A DNA stretch of 51,037 bases, taken from positions 1-51,037 of the IMG/VR virus record IMGVR_UViG_3300036851_000137; one strand, written 5' to 3'. The notes beneath the pieces are model-generated. The model did not search any database and was not told the origin of the DNA. It saw only the letters and a list, made by a program, of their open reading frames with translations. A program made the translations under genes and the position numbers. Of the stretch, positions 9,535-30,616 are shown one piece after another. Each line of letters starts with the position of its first letter. The stretch's first letter is position 1. Source of the stretch: a virus. Its lineage: Duplodnaviria; Caudoviricetes.

Positions 9535-9642
9535 TGGGTGACATGGGTGACATGGGTGACATGGATTTCGGTATTTTGTCTATAACGCGCATATAAAGCG
9601 AGTTTTGAAGATATCATGTCACCTCATGTCACCTTGTCACCC
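9535..9642. repeat. Iteron-like repeats, probable replication origin
   Basis: (TGGGTGACA)x3 at 9535-9561 faces three inverted TGTCACC copies at 9615-9642 across an AT-richer spacer, directly downstream of the primase-helicase. Confidence 0.7.
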
Positions 9643-12857: not shown

Positions 12858-13028
12858 CTAATCTGGCGGCAGGATCGCCCGGTTCATCAGCACCCGAAGC
12901 CGCGTCCGCTCGTAAAGCGAAAGGATGCCCGTGTCACGCTTGTGCAGCAGCGCCTCGCGCTCCATAACCTCGGCCATCGTGTTGTGGTTCCACGGGAACG
13001 AGTGGCGCCGGCAGGCCCATCCGGTCAT
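12858..13028 (-). CDS. Hypothetical protein (56 aa)
   Basis: Translated by hand; ATGA overlap with the exonuclease stop. Confidence 0.45.
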   Translation of the reverse strand: MTGWACRRHSFPWNHNTMAEVMEREALLHKRDTGILSLYERTRLRVLMNRAILPPD

Positions 13029-13708
13029 TGCTGCGCCTGAAACTGCGCGGCGAGTTGGTCAAGCGCGAGTTGCCCCATCGCAATCCGCTCATCGAAGAAG
13101 CCGGTTGTGCGGGCGCGGCGCTCAATCTCGTCTTTCATGTCGTTGAATTCATCGAGCGCATGGCTGAGATCCGCGATAAAGCCGTCGTCGCGATCGGTCT
13201 TGACGAGGCGGGGCGGCATCTCGGGATGGAATGACCAACGCGCGACCCACTCGGCCTCCCCGACCATAATCTGGCCCTGTGCCTGTGCCATGTAGTCGGC
13301 TCCGAACCCATCAATGAGGTATTCAAGGTGGACCCACGGCGTTGGACATTTGCACTCCAGAAACGCTGGCATCCCAACGATGCGCCGATCAGGCGTGGCA
13401 CCGGCGCGCATATCATCCGTTGTCAGAAAGCCCACGGGCGCGGTCTCTACATCCTCGCAAGCCTCGTACATCCGAACCGCCATCGACTCCAAATCCTTGC
13501 CACGCTGGATGTGTTCGATGTGGTCGAGGCTATCGAGCGAGTAGTTGAGCAGCTTTTCGGCAACGAGCCGGAAGGCATAGCCACGCGCCTGTTTCGAGAA
13601 CTTGCGCGTGGCGGGGGTCAGTATTCGGTGGAAATTGCTTGCCGTGGCGATGCCGAGCCTGACTTGTAACCAGTCGCCAGATCCTGGAGAGACATTCCAT
13701 TCCTTCAT
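13025..13708 (-). CDS. YqaJ / lambda-exonuclease-like recombination nuclease
   Basis: WLQVRLGIATAS, RGKDLE, GATPD, LECKCP, QAQGQI. Confidence 0.9.
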   Translation of the reverse strand: MKEWNVSPGSGDWLQVRLGIATASNFHRILTPATRKFSKQARGYAFRLVAEKLLNYSLDSLDHIEHIQRGKDLESMAVRMYEACEDVETAPVGFLTTDDMRAGATPDRRIVGMPAFLECKCPTPWVHLEYLIDGFGADYMAQAQGQIMVGEAEWVARWSFHPEMPPRLVKTDRDDGFIADLSHALDEFNDMKDEIERRARTTGFFDERIAMGQLALDQLAAQFQAQQ

Positions 13709-14472
13709 TCTGATTTCTCCTTCGCCCGGCGGCGGCGCATATTGATGGCGTTGCGCGCGATGGCAAGTTGATCTTTGCGGACCTCCGGCAAGCCGGGCAC
13801 GCCGAGCAAATCGAGCATCCCTTGAAGAGGGAACCCCACGCCCGCCATTTCGCGGCTTAGCTCGGCGACCTGAACATCGGTGATCGTCTCTTGCCCACCG
13901 CGCAGACCGTCGTCGTCGTCGCCCTCGCGCACGATGTTGAGCAGCATTTCAGCCGTATAGCGCTTCCCATAACTGAGGGTCGAACCCATCGCCTGGAGAT
14001 TGTTGCGGCCGGGTCCGGTGTCGAGCGCAAGCGGCAGCGAGGCCGATTTACTATGCCCGTCGCGGTGGAGCAGCGTTCCGGTGACAACGAGGCCCCCGCC
14101 CTCGCCCTGGCGCGGCGCGCTGTCGAATATGAGGCGGAACCCGGCCGCCTGGAGCATCGGAGAGATGATGAGGTCAATATCCTCCCACCGTGCGAATGGA
14201 TAGGTGCCGCCATCCGTGCCGTCCTTGCGGATCAGCGTCACCCGCCCATTCTTCTTCACGCGGATGGGCGGTAGCCCGGCGAGCGCCCGGTTAAACTCGA
14301 TCTCGCCTTGCCGCGCCATCATGCGCTCTTGTAGTTCGAGCAGCGCCATCATCTTGGCCGGATCTATCGCCGGGTTTGCGGCGGCTCGCTCGATCACGGC
14401 GAGCATATTGCCAGCACCGTTCGGCTGCGGTTCCAGCGTGTCATCGCGGCCAGTACCTATAGCGTCGCTCAT
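13705..14472 (-). CDS. ERF-family single-strand annealing protein
   Basis: VTGTLLHRDGHS, QAMGSTLSYGKRY, DDDG; start at ATG 14472 with GGAG RBS. Confidence 0.88.
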   Translation of the reverse strand: MSDAIGTGRDDTLEPQPNGAGNMLAVIERAAANPAIDPAKMMALLELQERMMARQGEIEFNRALAGLPPIRVKKNGRVTLIRKDGTDGGTYPFARWEDIDLIISPMLQAAGFRLIFDSAPRQGEGGGLVVTGTLLHRDGHSKSASLPLALDTGPGRNNLQAMGSTLSYGKRYTAEMLLNIVREGDDDDGLRGGQETITDVQVAELSREMAGVGFPLQGMLDLLGVPGLPEVRKDQLAIARNAINMRRRRAKEKSE

Positions 14473-14687
14473 GGATTCTCCCCATAGATATCCGGCCGCA
14501 GCGCATGCCGCGAGATGCCGGTAAGCCGCTCGACCTCGAGCACGCGCGTCGCCGGCACCCGGCCACGCAGGCGCCAGCTGGAGAGCGCTTGCGGCGTAAT
14601 CTCTAAGAGGCGAGCTAACCTGCCCAGCCCCCCGAGAGTGGCGGCGGCACGATCCAAAGCCTCGCGGCTGTTTTCTGTAACCATCAT
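14469..14687 (-). CDS. Cro-like HTH regulator (YdaS-like)
   Basis: GGLGRLARLLEITPQALSSW...VP...VERLTGISRHALRPDIY. Confidence 0.88.
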   Translation of the reverse strand: MMVTENSREALDRAAATLGGLGRLARLLEITPQALSSWRLRGRVPATRVLEVERLTGISRHALRPDIYGENP

Positions 14688-14902
14688 GCGGCCCGATTAT
14701 CGACAATGCGAAACCCGCTCTCATGGCACAGCGTGCTGCAGCGTTTTTCGCCGTCGTACTTAACAGGCCACCAGCCGTCGCCGGGGAGCGGAAGCATGTC
14801 GGGCATGATCCGGCAGACCTTGGCCGGATACCAAACCGTCTCGTTGCTCATGCTGAACCCGCTGACTTCGATGCGTGTCCCGGCTTTGATCTTGCGTGCC
14901 AT
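14684..14902 (-). CDS. Hypothetical protein
   Basis: First gene after the leftward promoter; ATGA overlap with cro. Confidence 0.55.
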   Translation of the reverse strand: MARKIKAGTRIEVSGFSMSNETVWYPAKVCRIMPDMLPLPGDGWWPVKYDGEKRCSTLCHESGFRIVDNRAA

Positions 14903-16364: not shown

Positions 16365-16682
16365 ATGGCAAAGCTAAAATGGGTGCCGGGACCGTGGCTG
16401 GCGCGTGATAACGGAGTATGCTGGCAGATAGATGCCGCGCAAGACGCTGTGGCAACGACGCAATTTTGCTACGCTCGCGAGACTGCTGCCAACGCCCGCC
16501 TGATCGCCGCCGCGCCCGAGCTTTACGAGGCGCTATCCAAACTGGCTAACGAGGTGGCCGGAATTTGCGAGTTGGCAGAAGCGGCGATCCGCGAGGGCGC
16601 CGGGCACACGAATTATTCGGTACTCTGGCAGCGTCAAGCCGAAGCCACGCTGGCCCTCGCCAAAGCTAGAGGCGAGCCATGA
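16365..16682 (+). CDS. Conserved phage protein (PGPW...ANARLIAAAPEL family)
   Basis: Recognisable motif; paralogous to 30245..30556. Confidence 0.75.
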   Translation: MAKLKWVPGPWLARDNGVCWQIDAAQDAVATTQFCYARETAANARLIAAAPELYEALSKLANEVAGICELAEAAIREGAGHTNYSVLWQRQAEATLALAKARGEP

Positions 16683-17185
16683 CCCGCGTCGCAACCGCGA
16701 TCCTCGCCGTGCTCATAGCCGCCGGCACGGTCGGCGCGCTGGCTGTCGCCGAGCCGTCGCCCGCGACGTTCAGCGGGGATGCTGTCGTGGTAGATGGGGA
16801 CAGCCTCCGCGTGGGAGGCGTGCGCGTGCGCCTCGCTTACATCGACGCGCCTGAGAGCGGACAGACCTGCTACGACGCTCAGCGGACGCCCTGGCGTTGC
16901 GGAGAGGCAGCTACACGGGCGCTGCAACGGATGATCGCCCTCGATTTGCGCGTGACGTGCCAAGCGAAGGCGACCGACCGCTACCAGCGCACGATCGCGG
17001 TTTGTCGCAATGGAGACGGGGATCTCGGCAAGCGCATGGTCGCGCTCGGCATGGCGGTTCGCTACGAGCGCTACGCCGACGACGCCTACCGCGACGAGCA
17101 GGCTGCGGCGAAGACCGAGCGGCTCGGGTTGTGGAACGGCGACTTTATGATGCCCGAGCAATGGCGCCGTAACGTACTCAGATAG
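16679..17185 (+). CDS. Thermonuclease (SNase) with signal peptide
   Basis: VVDGDSL, VRLAYIDAPE, DRYQRTIA, ERLGLW. Confidence 0.9.
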   Translation: MTRVATAILAVLIAAGTVGALAVAEPSPATFSGDAVVVDGDSLRVGGVRVRLAYIDAPESGQTCYDAQRTPWRCGEAATRALQRMIALDLRVTCQAKATDRYQRTIAVCRNGDGDLGKRMVALGMAVRYERYADDAYRDEQAAAKTERLGLWNGDFMMPEQWRRNVLR

Positions 17186-17194
17186 GATAGGGCG

Positions 17195-17377
17195 ATGATT
17201 TGGGAACGTATGTGCTACAATTTGCACAAACAAGGTATGCCGCGCACCGCCATCGCGGCCCGGCTGGCTGATACCTATGGCGGCACAACCCACGAATGGC
17301 TGCTAGAGGATTTCGATTACGCGATCGAACTCTGCGAGCGTGGCCCGGTTCCCGGCTATGAACACCCTGACTGTTAA
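17195..17377 (+). CDS. Hypothetical protein
   Basis: ORF track; stop lies inside a boundary site. Confidence 0.5.
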   Translation: MIWERMCYNLHKQGMPRTAIAARLADTYGGTTHEWLLEDFDYAIELCERGPVPGYEHPDC

Positions 17378-18267: not shown

Positions 18268-19026
18268 ATGCGCGCTGTGATATTCGATATAGACGGTACC
18301 CTCGCGGATGCTAGCCATCGGCTGCACCACGTCACCGGTGGCAACCGAAATTGGGATGCGTTCTTCGCTGCGATGGGCGATGATCCTGTTGTTGAGCCGA
18401 TCCGAGACCTGTTGAATAGCATCACGCGCGGAAGTGATAACCCTATCGTCTTGTGTTCGGGGCGCCCCGAGAATTATCGGGACATAACTGAGGACTGGCT
18501 GCGCCGCCATCAGATCTCGTGGGCTGCTCTCTATATGCGTCCCGAAGGTGATCATCGCGCCGATCACATTGTTAAGGCCCAGTTGCTCACGGGGATGCGC
18601 GGGGATGGATTTGAGCCTTGGATCGCCGTTGATGATCGCCCGAGCATCGTAGCGATGTGGCGCGAGAACGGTATCACCTGCCTGCAATGTCGCGATTGGG
18701 ATGACCGCCACGCGAACCCGGCCAAGACCACGCCTGGACTTTTGACAATAATGGTCGGCCCTAGCGGCGGCGGGAAGACGACGTGGCTGCGCAGTGCGCA
18801 CGCGCTATTCCGAGGAATCGAGCCTCGACACGTCGTCAGCAGCGACGAAATCCGCGAAGATCTGTGCGGCGATTTCCGGTCGCAGGAACGCAACGATGAG
18901 GTGTTTGCCGCACTTCACGCGATCGTGAAGACGCGCCTCGCACGAGGAGATCATTTGTTGCGATTGTCTCAGCAAAGGCGACTGACGTTAATACGCTTTC
19001 TGAGTAAGGAATCGCCCATTGACTGA
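18268..19026 (+). pseudogene. Polynucleotide kinase-phosphatase (HAD plus P-loop), kinase domain truncated
   Basis: FDIDGTL, SGR and DDR HAD motifs; GPSGGGKTT and SSDEIR; similarity stops after KTRLARG, before the expected DATN motif. Confidence 0.7.
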
Positions 19027-20808: not shown

Positions 20809-21631
20809 TTATACGCCGCAGATGCCTTCGCACTCGTTGTTGAACAAATCGCCTTGCCCGCGCTCCGCATCTGACCTGATGTCGGCGTGTTCGAGAGGGA
20901 CAAGACTGCGGTGCAAAAACAATTCGCTCCGCGTCTTGCTGAAACCGGGGCGGGATAAGGCGATCAACCGCAATGGCGTCCTCCCACTCCGCAGGATTCT
21001 GGCGGATCTGTCGCCAATGCTCATTCGAGTGGTACGGGCAACCGATGCACGAGCTTTTGGCTGGCGTGGGGAACCCGTTGCGCTCCATCCAAAGGAGGCA
21101 GTCGCTGCGGCTTAGGCGTTTCTCAATAAGCGGCCAGCGTCGCTCAATCCACGCGAGCGGCCCTGGCTTGACGCGGTAGATTTCATCCATCGAAATGCCG
21201 ATCCACATTTCGATCTGCGGTGTTTTCGGTTGCCGTTGGCGCGGCTTGATCCCGAGCTTTTCCTTCATCCGGCGCTCGATGGGTTCGATCTTGTAATGAC
21301 CCGTGCATTGCCTTCGGAGCGGAGCCGCAACCCCTCCCTTTCCCGCGACGAAGAATGGCGCCGTCGCCGCTCGGCCTTGCCCTCGGATAGCCTCGCCACG
21401 GGCCAATTTGTCGATGTCCTCGCGAATGTTGCCCTGCCTGACGATTTCAATGGGGAACGGTAGGACATTTGGCGACATGAGCCAGCGGAGGTGATCGTAA
21501 ACCGTCGCGGGTTCCCATCCCGTATCGGCGAAGATGGCGCAATCCGGCATTGGTCCTATCTCACCCGCCGCCGCCATGAGGGCAAGCGTGGTCGATTGGA
21601 CGCCGGCGCCTAGCGATAGGATGCGGAGCAT
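20809..21631 (-). pseudogene. PAPS-reductase-like phage protein with a frameshift near 20950
   Basis: SLGAGVQST, FADTGWE, RQCT..YKI, KSSCIGCPYH; the expected C-terminus LFLHRSLVPL...NNECEGICGV is in another frame ending at 20809. Confidence 0.75.
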
Positions 21632-21650
21632 GGTCTGCCCTTAATCTTTT

Positions 21651-22235
21651 TTAACGGCCAGCGGCGGCGATGGCCGCTCGATATCGGCGCGCCGCCGCAC
21701 CGCGAGAGAACCTTGAAGGCGCAGGGATGTCGCGATTCGCACTCCAAGCGACCATGCTCATGCGACCTACTGCTGGCGCAATCTCGGCAGCTGGGATCAG
21801 GAACGGGACGAGATCCTTCCGCCACACATTGATTTGACGAGACCGCCTCCCGCCTCCCTGCTGCTGTGCGATGCAGCGATAGCCAAGCGCTCGCCAGAAA
21901 TCATTAGCATCGATGTCGAACGCGCATCGAAGCTGAATGGCCTCCGAGCCATCCGCGTCCGCCTCAAGCACCCGGATAAGTCCCTCGCCATACAGTCGCC
22001 GCCGCGCGTCGTATTGGATGCAAACCTGATGGCAAGAAACGATACCGCCGAAGGCTCCATGCCAGACGTAGCCGCACGGCTCGCCGCCGAGCAGCCCGAG
22101 CAAGATACGCCCGGCGCTCAGTTCGCGCTCAAACGTGACCCGTGGGTAGAATGACAACGCTGTGGCATTCTTCCGTTGAAGGCTATCCACATAGGTCAGC
22201 AGGTCCGGGTGCGCTCTGACGGCCACGAAATCCAT
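21651..22235 (-). CDS. GNAT-family acetyltransferase
   Basis: QYDARRRLYGEGL (acetyl-CoA motif A) and ANDFWRALGY. Confidence 0.75.
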   Translation of the reverse strand: MDFVAVRAHPDLLTYVDSLQRKNATALSFYPRVTFERELSAGRILLGLLGGEPCGYVWHGAFGGIVSCHQVCIQYDARRRLYGEGLIRVLEADADGSEAIQLRCAFDIDANDFWRALGYRCIAQQQGGGRRSRQINVWRKDLVPFLIPAAEIAPAVGRMSMVAWSANRDIPAPSRFSRGAAARRYRAAIAAAGR

Positions 22236-22240
22236 GACTG

Positions 22241-22540
22241 TTAATGATCTTTATCAGTAGGCGCAATTATTGGGTTCCTATACGACATCTCGGCGTACTT
22301 ACTCCATAACCCCTCCGCAACAATGAAACTCTCTGCCATAACAGCTCTAGTTTCAGCCATTTGATAATAGGGCATCTTGCGTCCGTTTAATAACTCGCGA
22401 ACAGCGACGACATACTCGTGCCCGTCCGGCGAGTCCCGCACTCCAAGCAACGAGCCGATATCCTCAATGATCGACCTAAGAATACGCTCTTGCGGCGGCA
22501 TTGTCGGATCTAGCAAATCAACGGATTTCATATTCCCCAT
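22241..22540 (-). CDS. Hypothetical protein
   Basis: Bracketed by boundary sites 22238 and 22548. Confidence 0.55.
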   Translation of the reverse strand: MGNMKSVDLLDPTMPPQERILRSIIEDIGSLLGVRDSPDGHEYVVAVRELLNGRKMPYYQMAETRAVMAESFIVAEGLWSKYAEMSYRNPIIAPTDKDH

Positions 22541-22563
22541 ACCTTTACCGAGAAGGATACTTA

Positions 22564-22776
22564 TCAACTAATTGGAACGTGAACGGCCTTGCGTGGGTCG
22601 CCCATCAATCGGCGCAATTCATCATTCGGATGATCCGCAGGTTCTGCTAACCCCCGTTCGATCAGATACCGCATCGCTGCCGCCCGCGTCGGAGGCACCG
22701 TCTGCCGCTGCCGCCACTCATCCACGCGGGCTAGAAGCTCCGGCGCAATCAGCATCTCAAAACGATTTTCTCTCAT
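22564..22776 (-). CDS. Ribbon-helix-helix regulator divergent from the RAMP-like operon
   Basis: MRENRFEMLIAPELLARVDEWRQRQ..PTRAAAMRYLIERGL. Confidence 0.8.
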   Translation of the reverse strand: MRENRFEMLIAPELLARVDEWRQRQTVPPTRAAAMRYLIERGLAEPADHPNDELRRLMGDPRKAVHVPIS

Positions 22777-22802
22777 GCCCGGCATGATACGGAATTTTCC
22801 GG

Positions 22803-22830
22803 TTGACGCAAGCCAAAAATCTGCTACGGT
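22803..22830 (+). promoter_or_regulatory. Putative promoter of the RAMP-like/guide operon
   Basis: TTGACG-16 nt-TACGGT; same -10 hexamer as the leftward promoter at 14936. Confidence 0.55.
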
Positions 22831-22843
22831 ACATTCCGTAACG

Positions 22844-22913
22844 TCATCAGAATGGCACGGCACACACGGGAGTAGCCTTGCACTGAATGGCATAGACTTC
22901 AGCGGAAAGGCTC
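22844..22913 (+). ncRNA. 5-nt-periodic leader tract (putative gapped guide RNA)
   Basis: 14 consecutive pentamers, all N[GA/CA/GC]NN: tcatc agaat ggcac ggcac acacg ggagt agcct tgcac tgaat ggcat agact tcagc ggaaa ggctc. Confidence 0.75.
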
Positions 22914-22917
22914 AACG

Positions 22918-23493
22918 ATGGACACGATAAAATTCCATTTCAAAGGCTCGGCGCCAGCAATGATGCAGAGCGAACGGTTGGCAAACCCAATCGACCCGTT
23001 GACGAAAACGCTCAAGGCGATCACTGGCAAGCGGAAAAAGACCGACGCTGATTACGAGGAAATCGCCCGCATCAAGTTTCTGGGGAGCCTCTACTATGAC
23101 GAAAGGCTCGGTCCATATTGGCCGGCTCAGAACGTTGACCGCATGTTCTACGATGCGGCGAAACTGTCAAGGCGTGGCCCGGACGTGAAGCGGGCATTCA
23201 TGACGCTCGATGACAAGATCCCCATTATCTACGAAGGTCCACGCACCCCCGAAGCCATGTATGCTGTGCGGGATCGCTTCGTCGATGAACGCTCGGTCGT
23301 AGTGCAAAAGTCGCGCATTATGATGACGCGGCCCATTTTCCGAGAATGGGAAATCAAATTTGAGGCAGCATATGATCCCGAGGTTATCAATCGGGATGAC
23401 GTGATCGCTTTCGCACAGTTGGCGGGGCAGATGATCGGTCTCTCGACCTATCGCCCCCGGTTCGGCCGGTTTCAAGTTGTGTCTGCGGAATAG
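22918..23493 (+). CDS. RAMP/Cas7-like RNA-binding protein (VIPR-like effector)
   Basis: N-terminal strand plus G.APAMM, YWPAQNV, TRPIFREWEI, and C-terminal Gly-rich loop GQMIGLSTYRPRFGRFQV; flanked on both sides by periodic non-coding arrays. Confidence 0.7.
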   Translation: MDTIKFHFKGSAPAMMQSERLANPIDPLTKTLKAITGKRKKTDADYEEIARIKFLGSLYYDERLGPYWPAQNVDRMFYDAAKLSRRGPDVKRAFMTLDDKIPIIYEGPRTPEAMYAVRDRFVDERSVVVQKSRIMMTRPIFREWEIKFEAAYDPEVINRDDVIAFAQLAGQMIGLSTYRPRFGRFQVVSAE

Positions 23494-23819
23494 CCGTGGC
23501 GAGGAATTGATAACCGAGGCACAGATAACATACAGGCGAGGGTAAAACAGCGGATTGGTTCATTACATAGGCGCGCACATGCGATGAATGCAGCCGATGA
23601 CACGGGCGACGAGATCATACGACGCCACGAGAGTCGATCAGCAATCAGGACAACGGATTGGTTTATCAAATTGGCGGTGATTACATTTGAGCCGACACGA
23701 AGCTACCGGACCCGATCACAGAGGATTGGTTTATTACATCGGAGCGGACCAGCAATGAGCAGTCGCATCTGCACTCAGCAGATCGCAAGTGATAACCGCA
23801 GAGTGGAAAGGAATGGGTT
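23493..23819 (+). ncRNA. Array of four 5-nt-periodic tracts separated by GGATTGGTTYATY
   Basis: Separators at 23552, 23655 and 23723, with a variant GGAATGGGTTAT at 23810; the pentamers between them fit N[GA/CA/GC]NN, with 17 of 17 at 23570-23654. Confidence 0.85.
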
Positions 23820-24323
23820 ATGTCAGAACACCTTTTGCAGCAATATCCGGCATGGCGCGAAGCGATCAAGGCATTCATGCAGGAGCGTTTCGCGGCTGGA
23901 GATACCGTAACGTTCGATTGGCTCTATGAACATTTCCTGATCCAGCGCCCCGCTGGCTCGACCTTGCTCGCCGATGCGCAGAAGGCCGAGTTGCAATTCC
24001 TTAGCCAGTTCAAGAACTTTGAGGATGCTCTTCTAACCGAACATCAAATCGCGTTGACCAACGTGCGCGGCGTCGGATACCGCATCGTGCCGGCGGCAGA
24101 GCAAACGCGATGGGCCGAAGAGGAGGGCGTCGGCCAAGTTAAGAAGGCGATCCGCAAACTCGGCGATCGGCTTACCAACGTTGATCTCGTGCAGATCACC
24201 AACGAGCAACGCAAGGAGAACGCCGACGCTCTCGCTCGCCTAGCAATGCTGTCAGGAATGGTCAAGAGCGCGGTAGAACGGAAGTCCGCGCTTGAAATCA
24301 AGAAGCCAAAAGGTGACTGTTAA
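23820..24323 (+). CDS. Accessory protein of the RAMP-like operon (possible winged helix plus helical tail)
   Basis: GGAAAGGA RBS; LTNVRGVGYRIV wing-like motif; stop lies in boundary site 24317. Confidence 0.75.
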   Translation: MSEHLLQQYPAWREAIKAFMQERFAAGDTVTFDWLYEHFLIQRPAGSTLLADAQKAELQFLSQFKNFEDALLTEHQIALTNVRGVGYRIVPAAEQTRWAEEEGVGQVKKAIRKLGDRLTNVDLVQITNEQRKENADALARLAMLSGMVKSAVERKSALEIKKPKGDC

Positions 24324-24724
24324 GTGTTCTTATCGGCAATCTGCCCTGTAATCCATGCATGCATTCGCGTAAAGCGATCCTCGGGTGTTTCTCGGGAGTA
24401 CCACTCATCGTTCAGCCACATGATTTCCGCAGCCAATGCCGGGGCAATGCCGAATCTGTCGGCAATCGTTTCTAGATCCTCGGGGTCAATCTCGCGCATG
24501 TTGACGCCGCGCGCCTTCCCGACCGCACCGATTGAGCATACTTCGCCTTCTTGTTCTAGTTCATTTTGGATAAGGCACTTGCGCTCCATGCCATCAAAGG
24601 CAACCAACATCTCTCGTAGGAACGCCTGTCCCTTTCTTCCTTTGATGGCGCTAGCAACAGCGCCCCGCCACCGGATCAGCGACCATTGATCGTCGTAATC
24701 TTCGCTATATCCCGACCGGCTCAT
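24320..24724 (-). CDS. Conserved phage hypothetical protein
   Basis: MSRSGYSED...WRGAVASAIKGRKGQAFLREM; bracketed by sites 24317 and 24732. Confidence 0.75.
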   Translation of the reverse strand: MSRSGYSEDYDDQWSLIRWRGAVASAIKGRKGQAFLREMLVAFDGMERKCLIQNELEQEGEVCSIGAVGKARGVNMREIDPEDLETIADRFGIAPALAAEIMWLNDEWYSRETPEDRFTRMHAWITGQIADKNT

Positions 24725-24751
24725 TGGCGTGTCCTTAAAGTTTATTAACAG

Positions 24752-25882
24752 TCAATCAGCCGCCACATCGGCAAACAAGGGGCACTCGTCCTTGATCCGC
24801 CGCCGCGCCATCTCAGCATAAATGGGGTTTAGTTCGATGCCTATTGCATTGCACACTAAGCGATCGGCAACGAGTAGCGTAGTCCCGGCTCCGGCGAATG
24901 GATCCAGCACCGTCCCGCCTGATGGCGAACCCGCACGAATGCACGGCTCAACCAAGGCCGGCGGGAATGTAGCGAAATGCGCCTCCGGAAACGGTTGCGC
25001 TCCCACAGTCCAAACCGACCGCTTATTGCGCGTCCCGAGAACGGTGTATTCCGATTCTAGGAAGATCGCTGTACGCCGATCATTGACATCGCTCACATCA
25101 TCCCTTGCCGCAGCCGAATGAGCACCCACAATGCGCCCCTCGGAGACAGTCGGCTCGGCAATCGCCGCCGCATCAAAATAGTACCGATCGCTCTTGCTCA
25201 GCAAGAATAGGTACTCGTGCGCCTTCGTGCAGCGGTCGGTGACACTTTCCGGCATCGGATTCGGCTTCGCCCAAATAATGTCCTGCCGGAGCCACCAGCC
25301 ATCGGCGCGCAACGCGAAGGCTAGCATCCACGGGATGCCGATCAGATCCTTGCCTTTGATGTCGCCGCCTACCGGACCAACGCCATCACGGTTGCGCTGC
25401 CCGCGTTCGTCAACGATTCCGTCAGCTGTGTTCGTCGCCTGCTTGCCTGCGTCAGGATTGCCACCCTTGCCGCTCCCCGCGTAGCTGTCGCCAATGTTGA
25501 GCCAGAGCGTGCCGTCACTCCGCAGCACGCGGCGGACCTCGTGGAACACTGCGACCATTGCCGCCACGTATTCGTCGGGCGTCGATTCGAGACCGAGTTG
25601 CGCGTCAATTCGGACGGCACCGCATTTCGCGCACGTCTGACCCTGAGGCATCGTGTGTGTTCTAACTTTCACGGTTTCGCTAGTGTAGCCCGCTAACGAA
25701 GACGACGACGACGCAAGAGCCATACCTTTATGATCGCACGCCGGGTCGCCGCCCTCCCACGAGGCGGTGCCGTAATCCCTCAACCCATAATACGGCGGCG
25801 AGGTCACACAGCAATGCACGCTCTCGGCCGGCAGCTTCGCCAGCTCGGTTAGCGCGTCGCCTGTGATGACGCGAACGGTCAT
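24752..25882 (-). CDS. DNA methyltransferase, beta class (N4-C/N6-A), SPPY
   Basis: VTSPPY, IIWAKPNPMPESV, HFATFP, VLDPFAGAGTT. Confidence 0.93.
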   Translation of the reverse strand: MTVRVITGDALTELAKLPAESVHCCVTSPPYYGLRDYGTASWEGGDPACDHKGMALASSSSSLAGYTSETVKVRTHTMPQGQTCAKCGAVRIDAQLGLESTPDEYVAAMVAVFHEVRRVLRSDGTLWLNIGDSYAGSGKGGNPDAGKQATNTADGIVDERGQRNRDGVGPVGGDIKGKDLIGIPWMLAFALRADGWWLRQDIIWAKPNPMPESVTDRCTKAHEYLFLLSKSDRYYFDAAAIAEPTVSEGRIVGAHSAAARDDVSDVNDRRTAIFLESEYTVLGTRNKRSVWTVGAQPFPEAHFATFPPALVEPCIRAGSPSGGTVLDPFAGAGTTLLVADRLVCNAIGIELNPIYAEMARRRIKDECPLFADVAAD

Positions 25883-27854: not shown

Positions 27855-28397
27855 TTAGCGCTTGATACCGAAATCACGACCTTTGATCTTTGCCATTCGA
27901 CCATCGGGATGATGCCATACCACCCCTTCGTAATCGTGCCAAGCAAGCCACGCTGCCAAACCATCGTAATCCCGAGGAACATTAGTCAATCGCAAACCAA
28001 AAGAATCATGTGCAACCAACTGATGCGTATCCCACTTCTCGGGGTTGCCCTGCACTTTGGGGCCGACCAATTCATAAGTCCCATCAAGAATCGGCAACGA
28101 TGCCTCGCGATGATACCGATCCTCTGGGCCATCACCGACTGGCACCCAGCCAACTGTATTCTTCGTTTCCTCATCGAGCCCAGCAGGCTCAAAGCCCACA
28201 GGGGGAACCTCGCCAGCGCGCAACTCACGCCGCTTGAACAGCTTATTATCGCGAATTAAGCAGCAAGTGCCGTCCAACTTTCGTGTTGGGGCACCTTCAC
28301 CGGCGATTACCCATTCACATCCTTCATGCACAGAGCGCGTAACACGGCTACGGTCGCCGTTCCAGTCGCGTTCAAAAAGTGTCGGGATTTTTTGCAT
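27855..28397 (-). CDS. ATP-dependent RNA ligase-like protein (DUF5565/RLIG1 type)
   Basis: MQKIPTLFER, motif I RKLDGT, TYELVGPKVQGNP, EGVVW, MAKIK. Confidence 0.75.
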   Translation of the reverse strand: MQKIPTLFERDWNGDRSRVTRSVHEGCEWVIAGEGAPTRKLDGTCCLIRDNKLFKRRELRAGEVPPVGFEPAGLDEETKNTVGWVPVGDGPEDRYHREASLPILDGTYELVGPKVQGNPEKWDTHQLVAHDSFGLRLTNVPRDYDGLAAWLAWHDYEGVVWHHPDGRMAKIKGRDFGIKR

Positions 28398-30000: not shown

Positions 30001-30248
30001 CCAGCGACCGCCTCCGGGACGAGCGCGACTCAATCCAAGCGAAGATCGAAGCGCTGATGCTCCGGCGAGCGGCCCTCTCCGACGCGCTTATAACAGCGAC
30101 CACGCACGAACAAATTGACCGTGTGACGGAAGCCTTCGATGCGGATGGAGATAGGATCGCCGCGCTCGAAGCCGTGCTGGACGAGGCCGACGCTGCCGTT
30201 GCGCGGGACGATCCTGAGCGGCGTCTGTGGGGGCATGACGGGATATGA
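29997..30248 (+). CDS. Hypothetical coiled-coil protein
   Basis: Coupled overlaps at both ends. Confidence 0.6.
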   Translation: MTSDRLRDERDSIQAKIEALMLRRAALSDALITATTHEQIDRVTEAFDADGDRIAALEAVLDEADAAVARDDPERRLWGHDGI

Positions 30249-30556
30249 GCAAACCAAAATGGACACCTGGGCCTTGGCCGGTTGTGCGAGAAGATTTGCG
30301 CGGCGGCTGCTATTGGTGCGGCGTCGTGATCCCTGGTCTGGAAGAGGGGTTTGCCCTGCACGCAGACGATAACGGCGAAGCCAATGCTCACCTGATCGCC
30401 GCCGCCCCGGATCTCTACGATGCACTACACAAGATCATCGAAGGGTCAGTTACGGTCGCAGCATCACCAGATACGGTGTCAGCTATTGAGGATCTGATGG
30501 AGCTGTTTCGCACTATTGGTCAACCCGCTCTTGCCAAAGCCCGAGGTGAGCCATGA
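30245..30556 (+). CDS. Conserved phage protein (TPGPW...ANAHLIAAAPDL family)
   Basis: Motif; paralogous to 16365..16682. Confidence 0.75.
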   Translation: MSKPKWTPGPWPVVREDLRGGCYWCGVVIPGLEEGFALHADDNGEANAHLIAAAPDLYDALHKIIEGSVTVAASPDTVSAIEDLMELFRTIGQPALAKARGEP

Positions 30557-30616
30557 CCTACCGTTTCCCGCGAAGGGCGCGACGAGATTTATCCAAACGC
30601 ACGAGGTCGCCACAAA

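What the first reader, a model, noticed from the sequence alone, without database searches (positions are those of the whole stretch)
22548..24336. The RAMP/guide system is itself exactly one cassette
Seen: site 22548-22567 overlaps the RHH stop, site 24317-24336 contains the stop of the 167-aa gene, and I found no site between them. This defines the functional unit as RHH regulator, leader tract, RAMP-like gene, array and accessory gene, and explains its inverted orientation. Inference: it moves as a self-contained module and the 167-aa protein is a real component.
Basis: partly seen in the sequence, partly recalled or inferred. Interest (0 to 1): 0.7.

Follow-up and report, generated by a model that had tools for sequence, protein, structure and literature searches.

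The report
VIPR module between phage junction motifs
This stretch of a phage genome holds a recently described RNA-guided gene-silencing system (VIPR) with an unusual repeat pattern, lying backwards between two copies of a short motif that the phage carries at most junctions of its accessory genes, so the flanking motifs belong to the phage and not to the system.

Summary
A motif copy overlaps the RHH stop (core 22550-22565), a second holds the stop of the 167-aa gene (core 24319-24334), and none lies between. The left copy is the weakest of 15.

The content is a VIPR system, described in 2026 preprints. The 191-aa protein is a Vipr (PDB 'SUSP1 Vipr protein', E 1.6e-61). The 167-aa protein is the vap partner, found beside vipr in 72 of 80 related loci. 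The "leader" and "array" are five vrRNA-like tracts of 5-nt repeats. Their fixed triplet is N-G/C-A, not the canonical GGY. The two closest loci with DNA share this variant.

The cassette reading is only partly supported. The motif is this phage's general gene-junction element: stop, GWTAA-N6-TTAWC, ribosome site, start. It occurs 15 times here and almost never in 131 other VIPR loci. Homology with relatives covers only vipr, the array and vap. The RHH gene is not linked to VIPR in any of the 131 loci, and its relatives are TacA-like antitoxins. No empty site could be tested.

The parts
22550..22565 (-). Left junction motif (weak copy). It overlaps the RHH stop codon and lies 9 nt before the ATG (22540) of the next - strand gene (99 aa).
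22564..22788 (-). Small ribbon-helix-helix-like gene. It is 74 aa from ATG 22788; the listed ORF runs on to 22893. Its N-terminal domain is shared with TacA-like antitoxins and the C-terminal part is shortened. It is not a conserved VIPR part.
   Evidence: low-confidence model
22789..22848 (.). Divergent control region between the RHH gene and vipr. It has an 8-nt inverted repeat, TACGGAAT (22788-22795) and ATTCCGTA (22833-22840), around a -35-like TTGACG (22803-22808). The promoter and operator roles are inferred.
   Evidence: (I12); the scan found no consensus promoter
22849..22913 (+). Leader unit U0. It is a vrRNA-like tract of 13 pentamers ending GGAAA GGCTC just before the vipr ATG, and its last repeats serve as the ribosome-binding site.
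   Evidence: rank 5 of period-5 tracts
22918..23493 (+). vipr, a 191-aa RAMP homologue (Vipr).
23496..23561 (+). Array unit U1. It is poorly periodic and ends GGATT GGTTC.
23595..23664 (+). Array unit U2. It has 12 N-G/C-A-NN pentamers and ends GGATT GGTTT.
   Evidence: rank 3
23688..23732 (+). Array unit U3. It has 7 pentamers and ends GGATT GGTTT. A small hairpin plus T-rich tail was flagged as terminator-like.
   Evidence: rank 1, above all 20 shuffles
23770..23819 (+). Array unit U4. It ends GGAAT GGGTT directly before the vap ATG, so it doubles as the ribosome-binding site.
   Evidence: rank 10
23820..24323 (+). vap, the 167-aa vipr-accessory protein (vap1-like). Its last codons and its stop are encoded by the junction motif.
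24319..24334 (-). Right junction motif (strong copy). It holds the stops of both vap and the convergent 134-aa gene. Of the 13 copies whose flanking genes were read, it is the one followed by the antisense of a gene instead of a gene start.

Best explanation
The interval holds a VIPR (Viral Interference Programmable Repeat) system of the SUSP1 / P. fulva kind.

Components:
- vipr (22918-23493).
- A vap1-like accessory gene (23820-24323).
- Five vrRNA-like tracts of 5-nt repeats: one as the leader of vipr and four between the two genes.

Proposed mechanism (inferred):
- A promoter in 22789-22848 drives one + strand transcript.
- Vipr protomers bind one per pentamer. They hold the fixed triplet and expose the variable bases.
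- The variable bases guide the filament to double-stranded DNA of a competing mobile element, where transcription is blocked. Vap enhances the effect.
- This mechanism is taken from the published SUSP1 work. It was not shown for this locus.

Two departures from the canonical system:
- The fixed triplet is N-G/C-A instead of GGY. The two closest loci with DNA share this.
- The last repeats of a tract double as the ribosome-binding sites of vipr and vap.

The two 'sites':
- They are the nearest copies of a roughly 30-nt junction element that this phage places between accessory genes.
- The element reads: upstream stop codon, GWTAA-N6-TTAWC, ribosome-binding site, start codon.
- They are backbone features. 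The VIPR block landed, inverted, in a - strand run of such genes. Its right end fuses with a resident junction copy.

The RHH gene:
- It is a local addition of TacA-antitoxin ancestry.
- It is transcribed divergently from vipr and leads into the downstream - strand genes through an ordinary, weak junction copy.
- It may co-regulate vipr, but it is not a VIPR component.
For: Vipr identity:
- The family profile hits PDB 36pp_D 'SUSP1 Vipr protein' at E 1.6e-61. The single sequence hits at 9.3e-35 over residues 5-187.
- It matches phrog_4652 at 3.7e-51.
- The AF2 model has pLDDT 95.3. Its best PDB folds are Csm3/Cmr4-type RAMPs (E 1.1e-5, TM about 0.5).

Vap:
- It is homologous to the gene right after vipr in LESphi2 (32%), Medea1 (40%) and ESCO56 (28%).
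- A vap hit lies beside vipr in 72 of 80 loci.

Repeats:
- In an unbiased period-5 scan of the whole window, 4 of the 10 best tracts lie in the about 470 nt of non-coding DNA of this locus. Rank 1 exceeds all 20 shuffles.
- L215 and L216 (Vipr 64% and 66% identical) have the same pentamers and the same GGATTGGTTT ending, both upstream of vipr and between vipr and vap.
- At 104 pentamers in L215 plus L216, position 2 is G in 83 and position 3 is A in 84. In the window (40 pentamers) position 2 is G in 22 and C in 13, and position 3 is A in 30.

Published mechanism:
- PMC13142463, Results and Discussion read.
- 10.64898/2026.04.26.720927, section 5 read.
- Non-canonical fixed triplets (GAC, CAC, WGT, TGH) are reported in 10.64898/2026.10.21.760802, passages read.

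Sites:
- There are 15 copies in the window, 2.9 per 10 kb.
- The same matrix gives 0 to 0.23 per 10 kb in about 2.5 Mb of other viral loci.
- At 12 of the 15 copies an upstream open frame (60 codons or more) ends from 12 nt before to 18 nt after the core start. At 11 of 15 a start codon opening an ORF of 40 codons or more follows 4-20 nt after the core.

Module limits:
- blastn and tblastx homology to L215, L216 and L217 covers only 22900/22918-23490, 23685-23750 and 23826-24284.

RHH:
- No hit in 131 loci.
- Only 6 relatives were found, and 3 of the 7 family members match PF08681 TacA1.
Against: - No canonical GGY/NN tract (6 or more of 9) exists anywhere in the window. By contrast, 45 of 51 and 76 of 80 related loci have one beside vipr.
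- The window's own pentamers are more degenerate than those of L215 and L216, and unit U1 is barely periodic. The guides could be decaying.
- No RNA data exist. The one run that holds this DNA is a DNA run and is probably the source sample.
- No target was found with the 1-nt-skip rule. Nothing scored above shuffled guides in about 2.6 Mb held locally, and there were 0 exact matches in the viral collection.
- Two residues that read the first G in SUSP1 are changed: H17 to Q and D177 to T. The paper reports that D177A abolishes silencing.
- What the junction motif does was not shown. Its core is dyad-symmetric, which would also fit a dimeric DNA-binding protein.
- The close relatives of this phage (Vipr 67-89% identical: P0002-P0012) are known to me only as proteins. 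RHH linkage and flanking motifs in the nearest kin are untested.
- Supplementary figures of the VIPR papers (types, consensus variants) could not be seen.
Confidence: 0.75

Rival explanations
1. First reader's reading. RHH, leader, vipr, array and vap form one self-contained cassette. Its ends are dedicated recombination sites, and it is inserted, inverted and lost as a unit by exchange at those sites, as in integron cassettes or PeSL-bounded cassettes of T4-type phages.
For: - Two same-orientation motif copies bracket exactly this block, with none inside.
- The right copy has no gene start after it. The vap C-terminus diverges from relatives only over the last ~12 residues before the motif, and its last codons and stop are encoded by the motif and its flank, as expected at a recombination joint.
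- The genes between other motif copies are found in other phages with no shared neighbours: the 134-aa gene in 44 loci and the GNAT gene in 39 loci. So the units between motifs are individually mobile.
- The phage encodes an Erf-like annealing protein and an exonuclease.
- PeSL-mediated shuffling is a precedent (abstracts of PMC2839356 and PMC4122927).
Against: - The motif does not travel with VIPR: 0 to 3 copies in 131 VIPR loci, none flanking vipr.
- RHH is not linked to VIPR elsewhere.
- The two copies share only 11 of 16 core positions, too little for homologous exchange.
- The left copy is not significant on its own.
- The motif forms no stable hairpin: mean z +0.38 against shuffles. No sigma-70-like promoter was found in 21500-25200, which holds 5 of the 15 copies. 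So it is neither attC-like nor PeSL-like.
- No joint skipping the block appears in the contigs of the one run that holds it. That run is probably the source, so this is weak evidence.
Confidence: 0.12
2. The locus is a decaying VIPR. Vipr and vap are intact, but the repeat tracts have drifted away from a functional consensus and no longer guide anything.
For: - Position 2 of the window's pentamers is G in only 22 of 40, against 83 of 104 in L215 plus L216.
- U1 is barely periodic.
- There are only 7-13 repeats per unit.
- No target was found.
Against: - Position 3 is A in 30 of 40 pentamers. The tract endings GGATT GGTTY are kept in three units, and the two remaining units end in variants that serve as ribosome-binding sites.
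- 4 of the 10 best period-5 tracts of the window are here.
- Vipr is full length, with R138 and the G-loop RPRFGRF kept.
- 34 of 120 family representatives share the same Q17/S176 signature, so it is a stable clade.
Confidence: 0.12
3. The three 27-nt direct repeats are DNA sites (iterons or operators) for the vap DNA-binding protein or for replication. They are not RNA guides.
For: - Three direct repeats at 23547, 23650 and 23718 are 81-85% alike.
- vap-type proteins are predicted DNA binders (PMC13142463, Results).
Against: - The repeats are only the ends of longer period-5 tracts.
- The same tracts occur 5 to 8 times per locus in L215 and L216, also upstream of vipr.
- They sit where canonical vrRNA arrays sit in other loci, for example between vipr and vap in L217, L225, L235 and L276.
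Confidence: 0.05

Closest known systems
VIPR systems, type II (Escherichia phage SUSP1, Pseudomonas fulva prophage); PMC13142463
   Same: - Vipr homologue with a solved relative.
- vap1-like partner gene.
- Phage-borne.
- Tandem 5-nt repeat tracts on the coding strand beside vipr.
- One tract upstream of vipr and several downstream.
   Different: - The fixed triplet is N-G/C-A, not GGY.
- H17 is Q and D177 is T.
- The array lies between vipr and vap.
- Tract ends double as ribosome-binding sites.
- The tail is a short hairpin plus T-run, with no long pseudoknot tail seen.
- Type assignment could not be checked, because it rests on supplementary data I could not see.
Non-canonical VIPR arrays (GAC/NN, CAC/NN, WGT/NN, TGH/NN) found by entropy periodicity; 10.64898/2026.10.21.760802
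   Same: 5-nt period, a fixed triplet that is not GGY, and a Vipr-like fold next to the array (passages read).
   Different: I cannot tell whether N-G-A/NN is one of their 21 clusters. TGH/NN is the nearest named pattern, and the logos are in a supplementary figure not held.
PeSL regulatory cassettes of T4-type phages; PMC2839356, PMC4122927 (abstracts read)
   Same: A short conserved motif repeated between non-essential genes of a plastic genome region. The units between copies are found in other phages in other contexts.
   Different: - No sigma-70-like promoter and no stem-loop.
- The motif is an intercistronic stop / ribosome-site element.
- Exchange at the motif is not shown, because no close relative was available.
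Integron gene cassettes with attC sites (recalled knowledge)
   Same: Genes bounded by imperfect palindromic sites, with the stop codon often inside the site.
   Different: The core is 16 nt, not 57-141 nt. It has no folded structure. No integron integrase was looked for or seen beside the array, and the motif orientation follows the gene orientation on both strands.
Class 1 CRISPR backbone RAMPs (Csm3, Cmr4, Cas7)
   Same: The fold matches: best PDB hits at E 1.1e-5 to 1e-3, TM 0.43-0.56.
   Different: About 10% sequence identity, no CRISPR array, no other cas genes, and no Rfam or repeat-spacer structure.

Membership tests
VIPR system | Vipr protein (minimal RAMP homologue, about 20 kDa) | tested here: met
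   PDB 'SUSP1 Vipr protein' at E 1.6e-61 with the profile and 9.3e-35 with the single sequence. The fold matches Csm3/Cmr4.
VIPR system | vipr-accessory gene (vap) adjacent on the same strand | tested here: met
   The 167-aa protein is homologous to the gene after vipr in three annotated phages. It lies beside vipr in 72 of 80 loci.
VIPR system | vrRNA of 9-16 YNNGG (GGY/NN) tandem repeats | tested here: not met
   There is no tract with GGY in 6 or more of 9 successive pentamers anywhere in the window. The same scan finds them in 45 of 51 and 76 of 80 related loci.
VIPR system | 'or a related consensus': 5-nt period with a fixed triplet and variable dinucleotide, beside vipr | tested here: met
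   N-G/C-A/NN tracts are present: 4 of the 10 best period-5 tracts of the window. The same consensus occurs in L215 and L216.
VIPR system | Conserved 3' tail after the repeat tract | tested here: inconclusive
   A shared ending GGATTGGTTT(A)TT is seen, with a small hairpin in U2 and U3 and in most L215 and L216 units. No covariation test was made.
VIPR system | vrRNAs are expressed and bind Vipr; the complex silences DNA targets by the 1-nt-skip rule | not testable with these tools
   There is no RNA run. Target searches were empty.
VIPR system | Residues that read GGY in SUSP1 (H17, D177, R138, W178) | tested here: inconclusive
   R138 is kept and W178 is Y, but H17 is Q and D177 is T. Q17 never goes with D/E177 (0 of 42), while H17 does in 74 of 76. 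L217 has Q17/T177 and still has GGY tracts.
PeSL-type regulatory cassette | Strong sigma-70-like early promoter in the motif | tested here: not met
   0 promoter-like sites in 21500-25200, which holds five motif copies.
PeSL-type regulatory cassette | Stem-loop terminator in the motif | tested here: not met
   The 15 motif copies fold no better than shuffles, mean z +0.38.
PeSL-type regulatory cassette | Indels between close relatives bounded by the motif | not testable with these tools
   No backbone relative could be fetched.
Integron cassette / attC | Long imperfect palindrome that folds, with an integron integrase nearby | tested here: not met
   The core is 16 nt and has no stable fold. 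An integrase was not searched for.
TacA-like RHH antitoxin (PF08681) | Match to the family model, including the C-terminal toxin-binding part | tested here: not met
   The window's copy has no Pfam match at E <= 0.01. Three of its six relatives do match (best E 2.8e-5). The alignment shows the window's copy lacks about 25 residues after the RHH domain.

The most novel reading that the evidence does not exclude
The Q17/S176/T177 clade of Vipr proteins (34 of 120 family representatives) may read a different fixed triplet, N-G-A. That would leave three variable bases per pentamer instead of two. Its guides might then follow a recognition code other than the published NN / 1-nt-skip rule, for example three read bases per repeat. 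The guide tracts also lie in the leaders of vipr and vap, where their last repeats act as ribosome-binding sites. Vipr binding to its own transcript could therefore couple guide loading to translation of the system.
Probability: 0.15. Interest if true: 0.75.

Novelty: new member of a known kind. Interest (0 to 1): 0.45.

Why it matters
VIPR was described only in 2026, as a minimal RNA-guided DNA-silencing system of phages and a proposed forerunner of CRISPR.

This locus adds three things:
- A natural system whose repeat keeps the 5-nt period but not the GGY triplet.
- A matching change in the residues that read the first G in the solved structure. This gives a concrete pair of proteins and RNAs for testing how Vipr chooses its repeat, and whether orthogonal systems can be built.
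- A view of how such a system sits in a phage. It is a foreign, inverted block in a run of individually mobile accessory genes: kinase, RNA ligase, methylases, nucleases. These genes are joined by one repeated junction element.

The cassette idea itself is a modest point. The flanking motifs are backbone junctions, so they say where the block landed, not how it moves.

Tried and rejected
- **Tail motif scan.** The GGATTGGTTYATYAMAT scan of viral contigs gave 118 or more single matches, one per contig. These are chance hits and were not used.
- **Searches for close relatives.** Single-protein searches in three collections gave loci of at most 44% identity. The closest relatives (P0002-P0012, 67-89%) are known to me only as proteins. 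In a sample of 401 genomes of one bacterial class, 2 had a match and neither was close.
- **Empty-site test.** Homologues of the 134-aa gene (44 loci) and of the GNAT gene (39 loci) have no shared neighbours with the window. The 99-aa gene and the RHH gene have no relatives in viral contigs.
- **Public runs.** One DNA run holds the stretch and is probably its source. Its contigs show no joint across 22566-24319. This says nothing about mobility.
- **Guide targets by the 1-nt-skip rule.** For 18 units from the window, L215 and L216, best matches equalled those of shuffled guides. The U2 pattern had 0 exact matches in viral contigs.
- **Q17/T177 as the cause of the non-GGY triplet.** Rejected in that simple form, because L217 has Q17/T177 with GGC/NN tracts. 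S176 is what remains specific to the three N-G-A loci, and three loci are few.
- **RHH structure.** The AF2 model had pLDDT 62, with two helices at the expected places. It was too weak for a fold search.
- **Negative or uninformative scans.** Rfam gave no family and ARAGORN no tRNA. The PADLOC, NCBIfam and Pfam scans of Vipr, vap, the RHH gene (109-aa ORF) and both neighbours gave nothing above curated cut-offs. GC content of the block (51-56%) differs little from the 134-aa neighbour (54%).
- **CtrA box (TTAA-N7-TTAAC, recalled).** The spacing here is N6, so this was not pursued.
Full report
**What is at the coordinates**

The window is a 51,037-nt virus record with 59% G+C. Between 20079 and 27093 the plausible genes run on the - strand:
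- an HNH endonuclease
- a PAPS-reductase-like gene
- a GNAT-like gene
- a 99-aa gene
- a small RHH-like gene
- a 134-aa gene
- two DNA methyltransferases

The exceptions are two + strand genes of 191 aa (22918-23493) and 167 aa (23820-24323). They are separated by 326 nt that hold three direct repeats.

**The sites**

A 16-nt core GWTAA-N6-TTAWC with conserved flanks recurs in the window.
- A weight matrix built from 11 copies, leaving out the two under test, scores 24319 at 24.1 bits and 22550 at 15.9 bits. The maxima of 10 shuffles were 7.3-16.4.
- With leave-one-out scoring, 14 copies score 17.3-33.2 and 22550 scores 12.9.
- With the matrix of the other 13, 24319 scores 24.7 (0 of 100 shuffles reach it) and 22550 scores 11.9 (35 of 100 shuffles have such a position somewhere).
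- The best score inside 22567-24318 is 1.0.

It is credible only because of where it lies.

**What the sites are**

All 15 copies lie between 15.7 and 32.4 kb, in the region of accessory genes (polynucleotide kinase, RNA ligase, nucleases, methylases). Their orientation follows that of the genes.
- At 12 of the 15 copies an upstream open frame (60 codons or more) ends from 12 nt before to 18 nt after the core start, in many of them within the TGA or TAA of the motif. At 11 of 15 a start codon opening an ORF of 40 codons or more follows 4-20 nt after the core, in several of them behind an AAGGA/AAGGG (at 17373 the start was read by eye in the + orientation).
- Only three further copies lack a start codon opening an ORF of 40 codons or more after the core (17373 as scanned on the - strand, 20788, 27837). 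At 24319 the only such frame, an 85-codon TTG ORF, is the antisense of the vap 3' end. The vap stop and the stop of the convergent 134-aa gene share one TTAA.
- The motif folds no better than shuffled sequence (mean z +0.38).
- No consensus promoter is found in 21500-25200.
- The same matrix finds 2.9 copies per 10 kb here. It finds 0 in 51 VIPR loci, 3 in 80 VIPR loci, 4 in 44 loci with the 134-aa homologue and 25 in 118 unrelated viral loci.
- A second version of the matrix finds 1 in all 131 VIPR loci, 1.7 kb from vipr, and 5 in 39 loci with the GNAT homologue.

The motif is thus a junction element of this phage's own accessory genes. Its exact role is not shown. It could keep the translation start region open, or be a protein-binding dyad. 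I favour an expression role and treat recombination at it as a by-product.

**What lies between the sites**

The 191-aa protein:
- It has no Pfam, NCBIfam or PADLOC match. It belongs to phrog_4652.
- A profile of 42 relatives hits the PDB chain named 'SUSP1 Vipr protein' at E 1.6e-61. The single sequence hits at 9.3e-35.
- Its model (pLDDT 95.3) resembles Csm3/Cmr4 RAMPs.

The literature search led to three preprints on VIPR systems. I read:
- the Results, Discussion and legends of PMC13142463
- section 5 of 10.64898/2026.04.26.720927
- sections 8 and 29 of 10.64898/2026.10.15.759431

According to these, a VIPR locus has vipr, a vap gene and vrRNAs made of 9-16 YNNGG repeats followed by a tail. 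Vipr protomers hold each GGY and present the NN bases. The NN bases pair with double-stranded DNA, skipping every third base, and silence transcription of competing phages and satellites. vap1 enhances protection.

The 167-aa protein is homologous to the gene that follows vipr in LESphi2, Medea1 and ESCO56. With MakoManhole the match is marginal. A vap hit lies beside vipr in 72 of 80 loci and in 4 of 51 more distant or short loci.

**The guide tracts**

My scan for GGY at a 5-nt period finds tracts beside vipr in 45 of 51 and 76 of 80 related loci. It finds none anywhere in the window.

An unbiased scan for any 5-nt periodicity nevertheless places 4 of the window's 10 best tracts in this locus:
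- 23685-23729 (rank 1, above all 20 shuffles)
- 23596-23640 (rank 3)
- 22866-22910 (rank 5)
- 23768-23812 (rank 10)

The closest loci for which DNA could be fetched are L215 and L216, with Vipr 64% and 66% identical. They have long tracts of the same kind, upstream of vipr and between vipr and vap, each ending GGATT GGTTT.
- In the register set by that ending, position 2 is G in 83 and position 3 is A in 84 of 104 pentamers. Positions 1, 4 and 5 vary.
- In the window's 40 pentamers, position 2 is G in 22 and C in 13, and position 3 is A in 30.
- The last repeats before vipr and before vap (GGAAA GGCTC, GGAAT GGGTT) lie where a ribosome-binding site is expected, as in L215 and L216.
- One tract end was flagged as a terminator-like hairpin with a T-rich tail.

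Non-canonical triplets beside Vipr-like folds have been reported (GAC, CAC, WGT, TGH; 10.64898/2026.10.21.760802, passages). I could not see the figure that lists them.

**Protein changes that go with it**

In SUSP1 the first G is read by H17 and D177, and the second by R138 and W178. The window has Q17, T177, R138 and Y178.

Among 120 family representatives:
- Q17 occurs in 42 and never with D/E177.
- H17 occurs in 76, and with D/E177 in 74 of them.
- 34 have Q17 with S176.
- R138 is kept in 119.

The window, L215 and L216 all have Q17/S176/T177 and the N-G-A triplet. L217 and five other loci have Q17/G176/T177. In L217, L236 and L242, whose tracts I read, the GGY-type repeats are kept. Q17/T177 alone therefore does not explain the change. 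Three loci are too few to assign it to S176.

**Where the module ends**

Similarity between the window and L215, L216 and L217 covers 22900/22918-23490, 23685-23750 and 23826-24284, and nothing else.
- Upstream of vipr, L215 and L216 have a co-directional PD-(D/E)XK nuclease gene. L217 has co-directional small ORFs.
- The four annotated phages have yet other neighbours.
- The shared, mobile unit is therefore leader units, vipr, array and vap.
- The vap C-terminus differs from L215 and L216 over its last 12 residues, and its end is encoded by the motif flank. This places one joint between 24284 and 24319.

**The RHH gene**

The RHH gene (74 aa from 22788) has only six relatives in the large protein collection. 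Three of the seven family members match the TacA antitoxin family. The window's copy lacks about 25 residues after the RHH domain. It gave no hit in 131 VIPR loci and none in viral contigs.

It starts about 130 nt from vipr on the other strand, across a region with an 8-nt inverted repeat. Shared control is possible, but this is inferred only.

**What could not be settled**

No relative of the phage backbone was available, so there was no empty-site test. There are no RNA data. No target of the guides was found.

**Verdict**

The identification as a RAMP-and-guide system with a real accessory protein is right, and it matches a system now in print. The claim that RHH and the two sites define its functional and mobile unit is not borne out by the relatives that could be examined.

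Noticed in passing
L215:7833-8152: A long canonical GGY/NN array (6 overlapping tracts, up to 9 of 9) lies directly after the vap of a VIPR locus whose own tracts are N-G-A/NN. In L216 a 342-aa gene sits at that place. The two loci share the first residues of that gene (MAxTxRPQLV). It could be a set of solo guides for another phage's Vipr, as described for satellites and VIPR-null phages.
   Followed up: partly
window 21651-22788 (- strand): The RHH gene's relatives are TacA-like antitoxins, whose usual partner is a GNAT toxin. A GNAT-like gene (194 aa, weak Acetyltransf_7 hit, E 0.003) lies two genes downstream, separated by the 99-aa gene and two junction motifs. This may be the remnant of a toxin-antitoxin pair split by cassette exchange. 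The GNAT had no NCBIfam match.
   Followed up: partly
window 9591-9635: This is the second-best period-5 tract of the window. It is really a tandem CATGTCACCT-type 10-nt repeat (ATGTC ACCTC ATGTC ACCTT) in an A+T-rich spot. It is not VIPR-like and is unexplained.
   Followed up: no
window 16365-16684 and 30245-30558: Two paralogous genes of about 105 aa (phrog_1273 for the first) share stretches of 53 nt at 79% and 32 nt at 84%, up to the overlapping start of the next gene. This is a duplicated small gene in both halves of the accessory region.
   Followed up: no
window 18268-19026 and 27855-28397: There is a polynucleotide kinase (phrog_415, 5e-44) and an RNA ligase (phrog_14301, 3e-54). Together with two DNA methyltransferases, two HNH endonucleases, a PAPS-reductase-like gene and an Erf-like/exonuclease pair (13025-14724), the junction motifs mark a counter-defence and recombination region.
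   Followed up: partly
window 17368, 22235, 24314 (+) and 24745-24754 (-): The exact 10-mer TGACTGTTAA occurs four times (0.87 expected; 3 of 100 shuffles reach 4), always as the flank plus first half of a junction motif. The copies at 22240 and 24319 share 16 of 21 positions. The copy at 22240 runs straight into a start codon, whereas 24319 runs into the antisense of vap.
   Followed up: partly
window 23820-24323: The vap protein gives a weak PADLOC hit to candidate defence family PDC-M05B (E 9e-4, residues 45-88).
   Followed up: no
Loci L217, L225, L227, L235, L261, L276, L283: In these loci the canonical vrRNA array also lies between vipr and vap. The vipr-array-vap order of the window is therefore a recurrent architecture, not a peculiarity.
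   Followed up: partly
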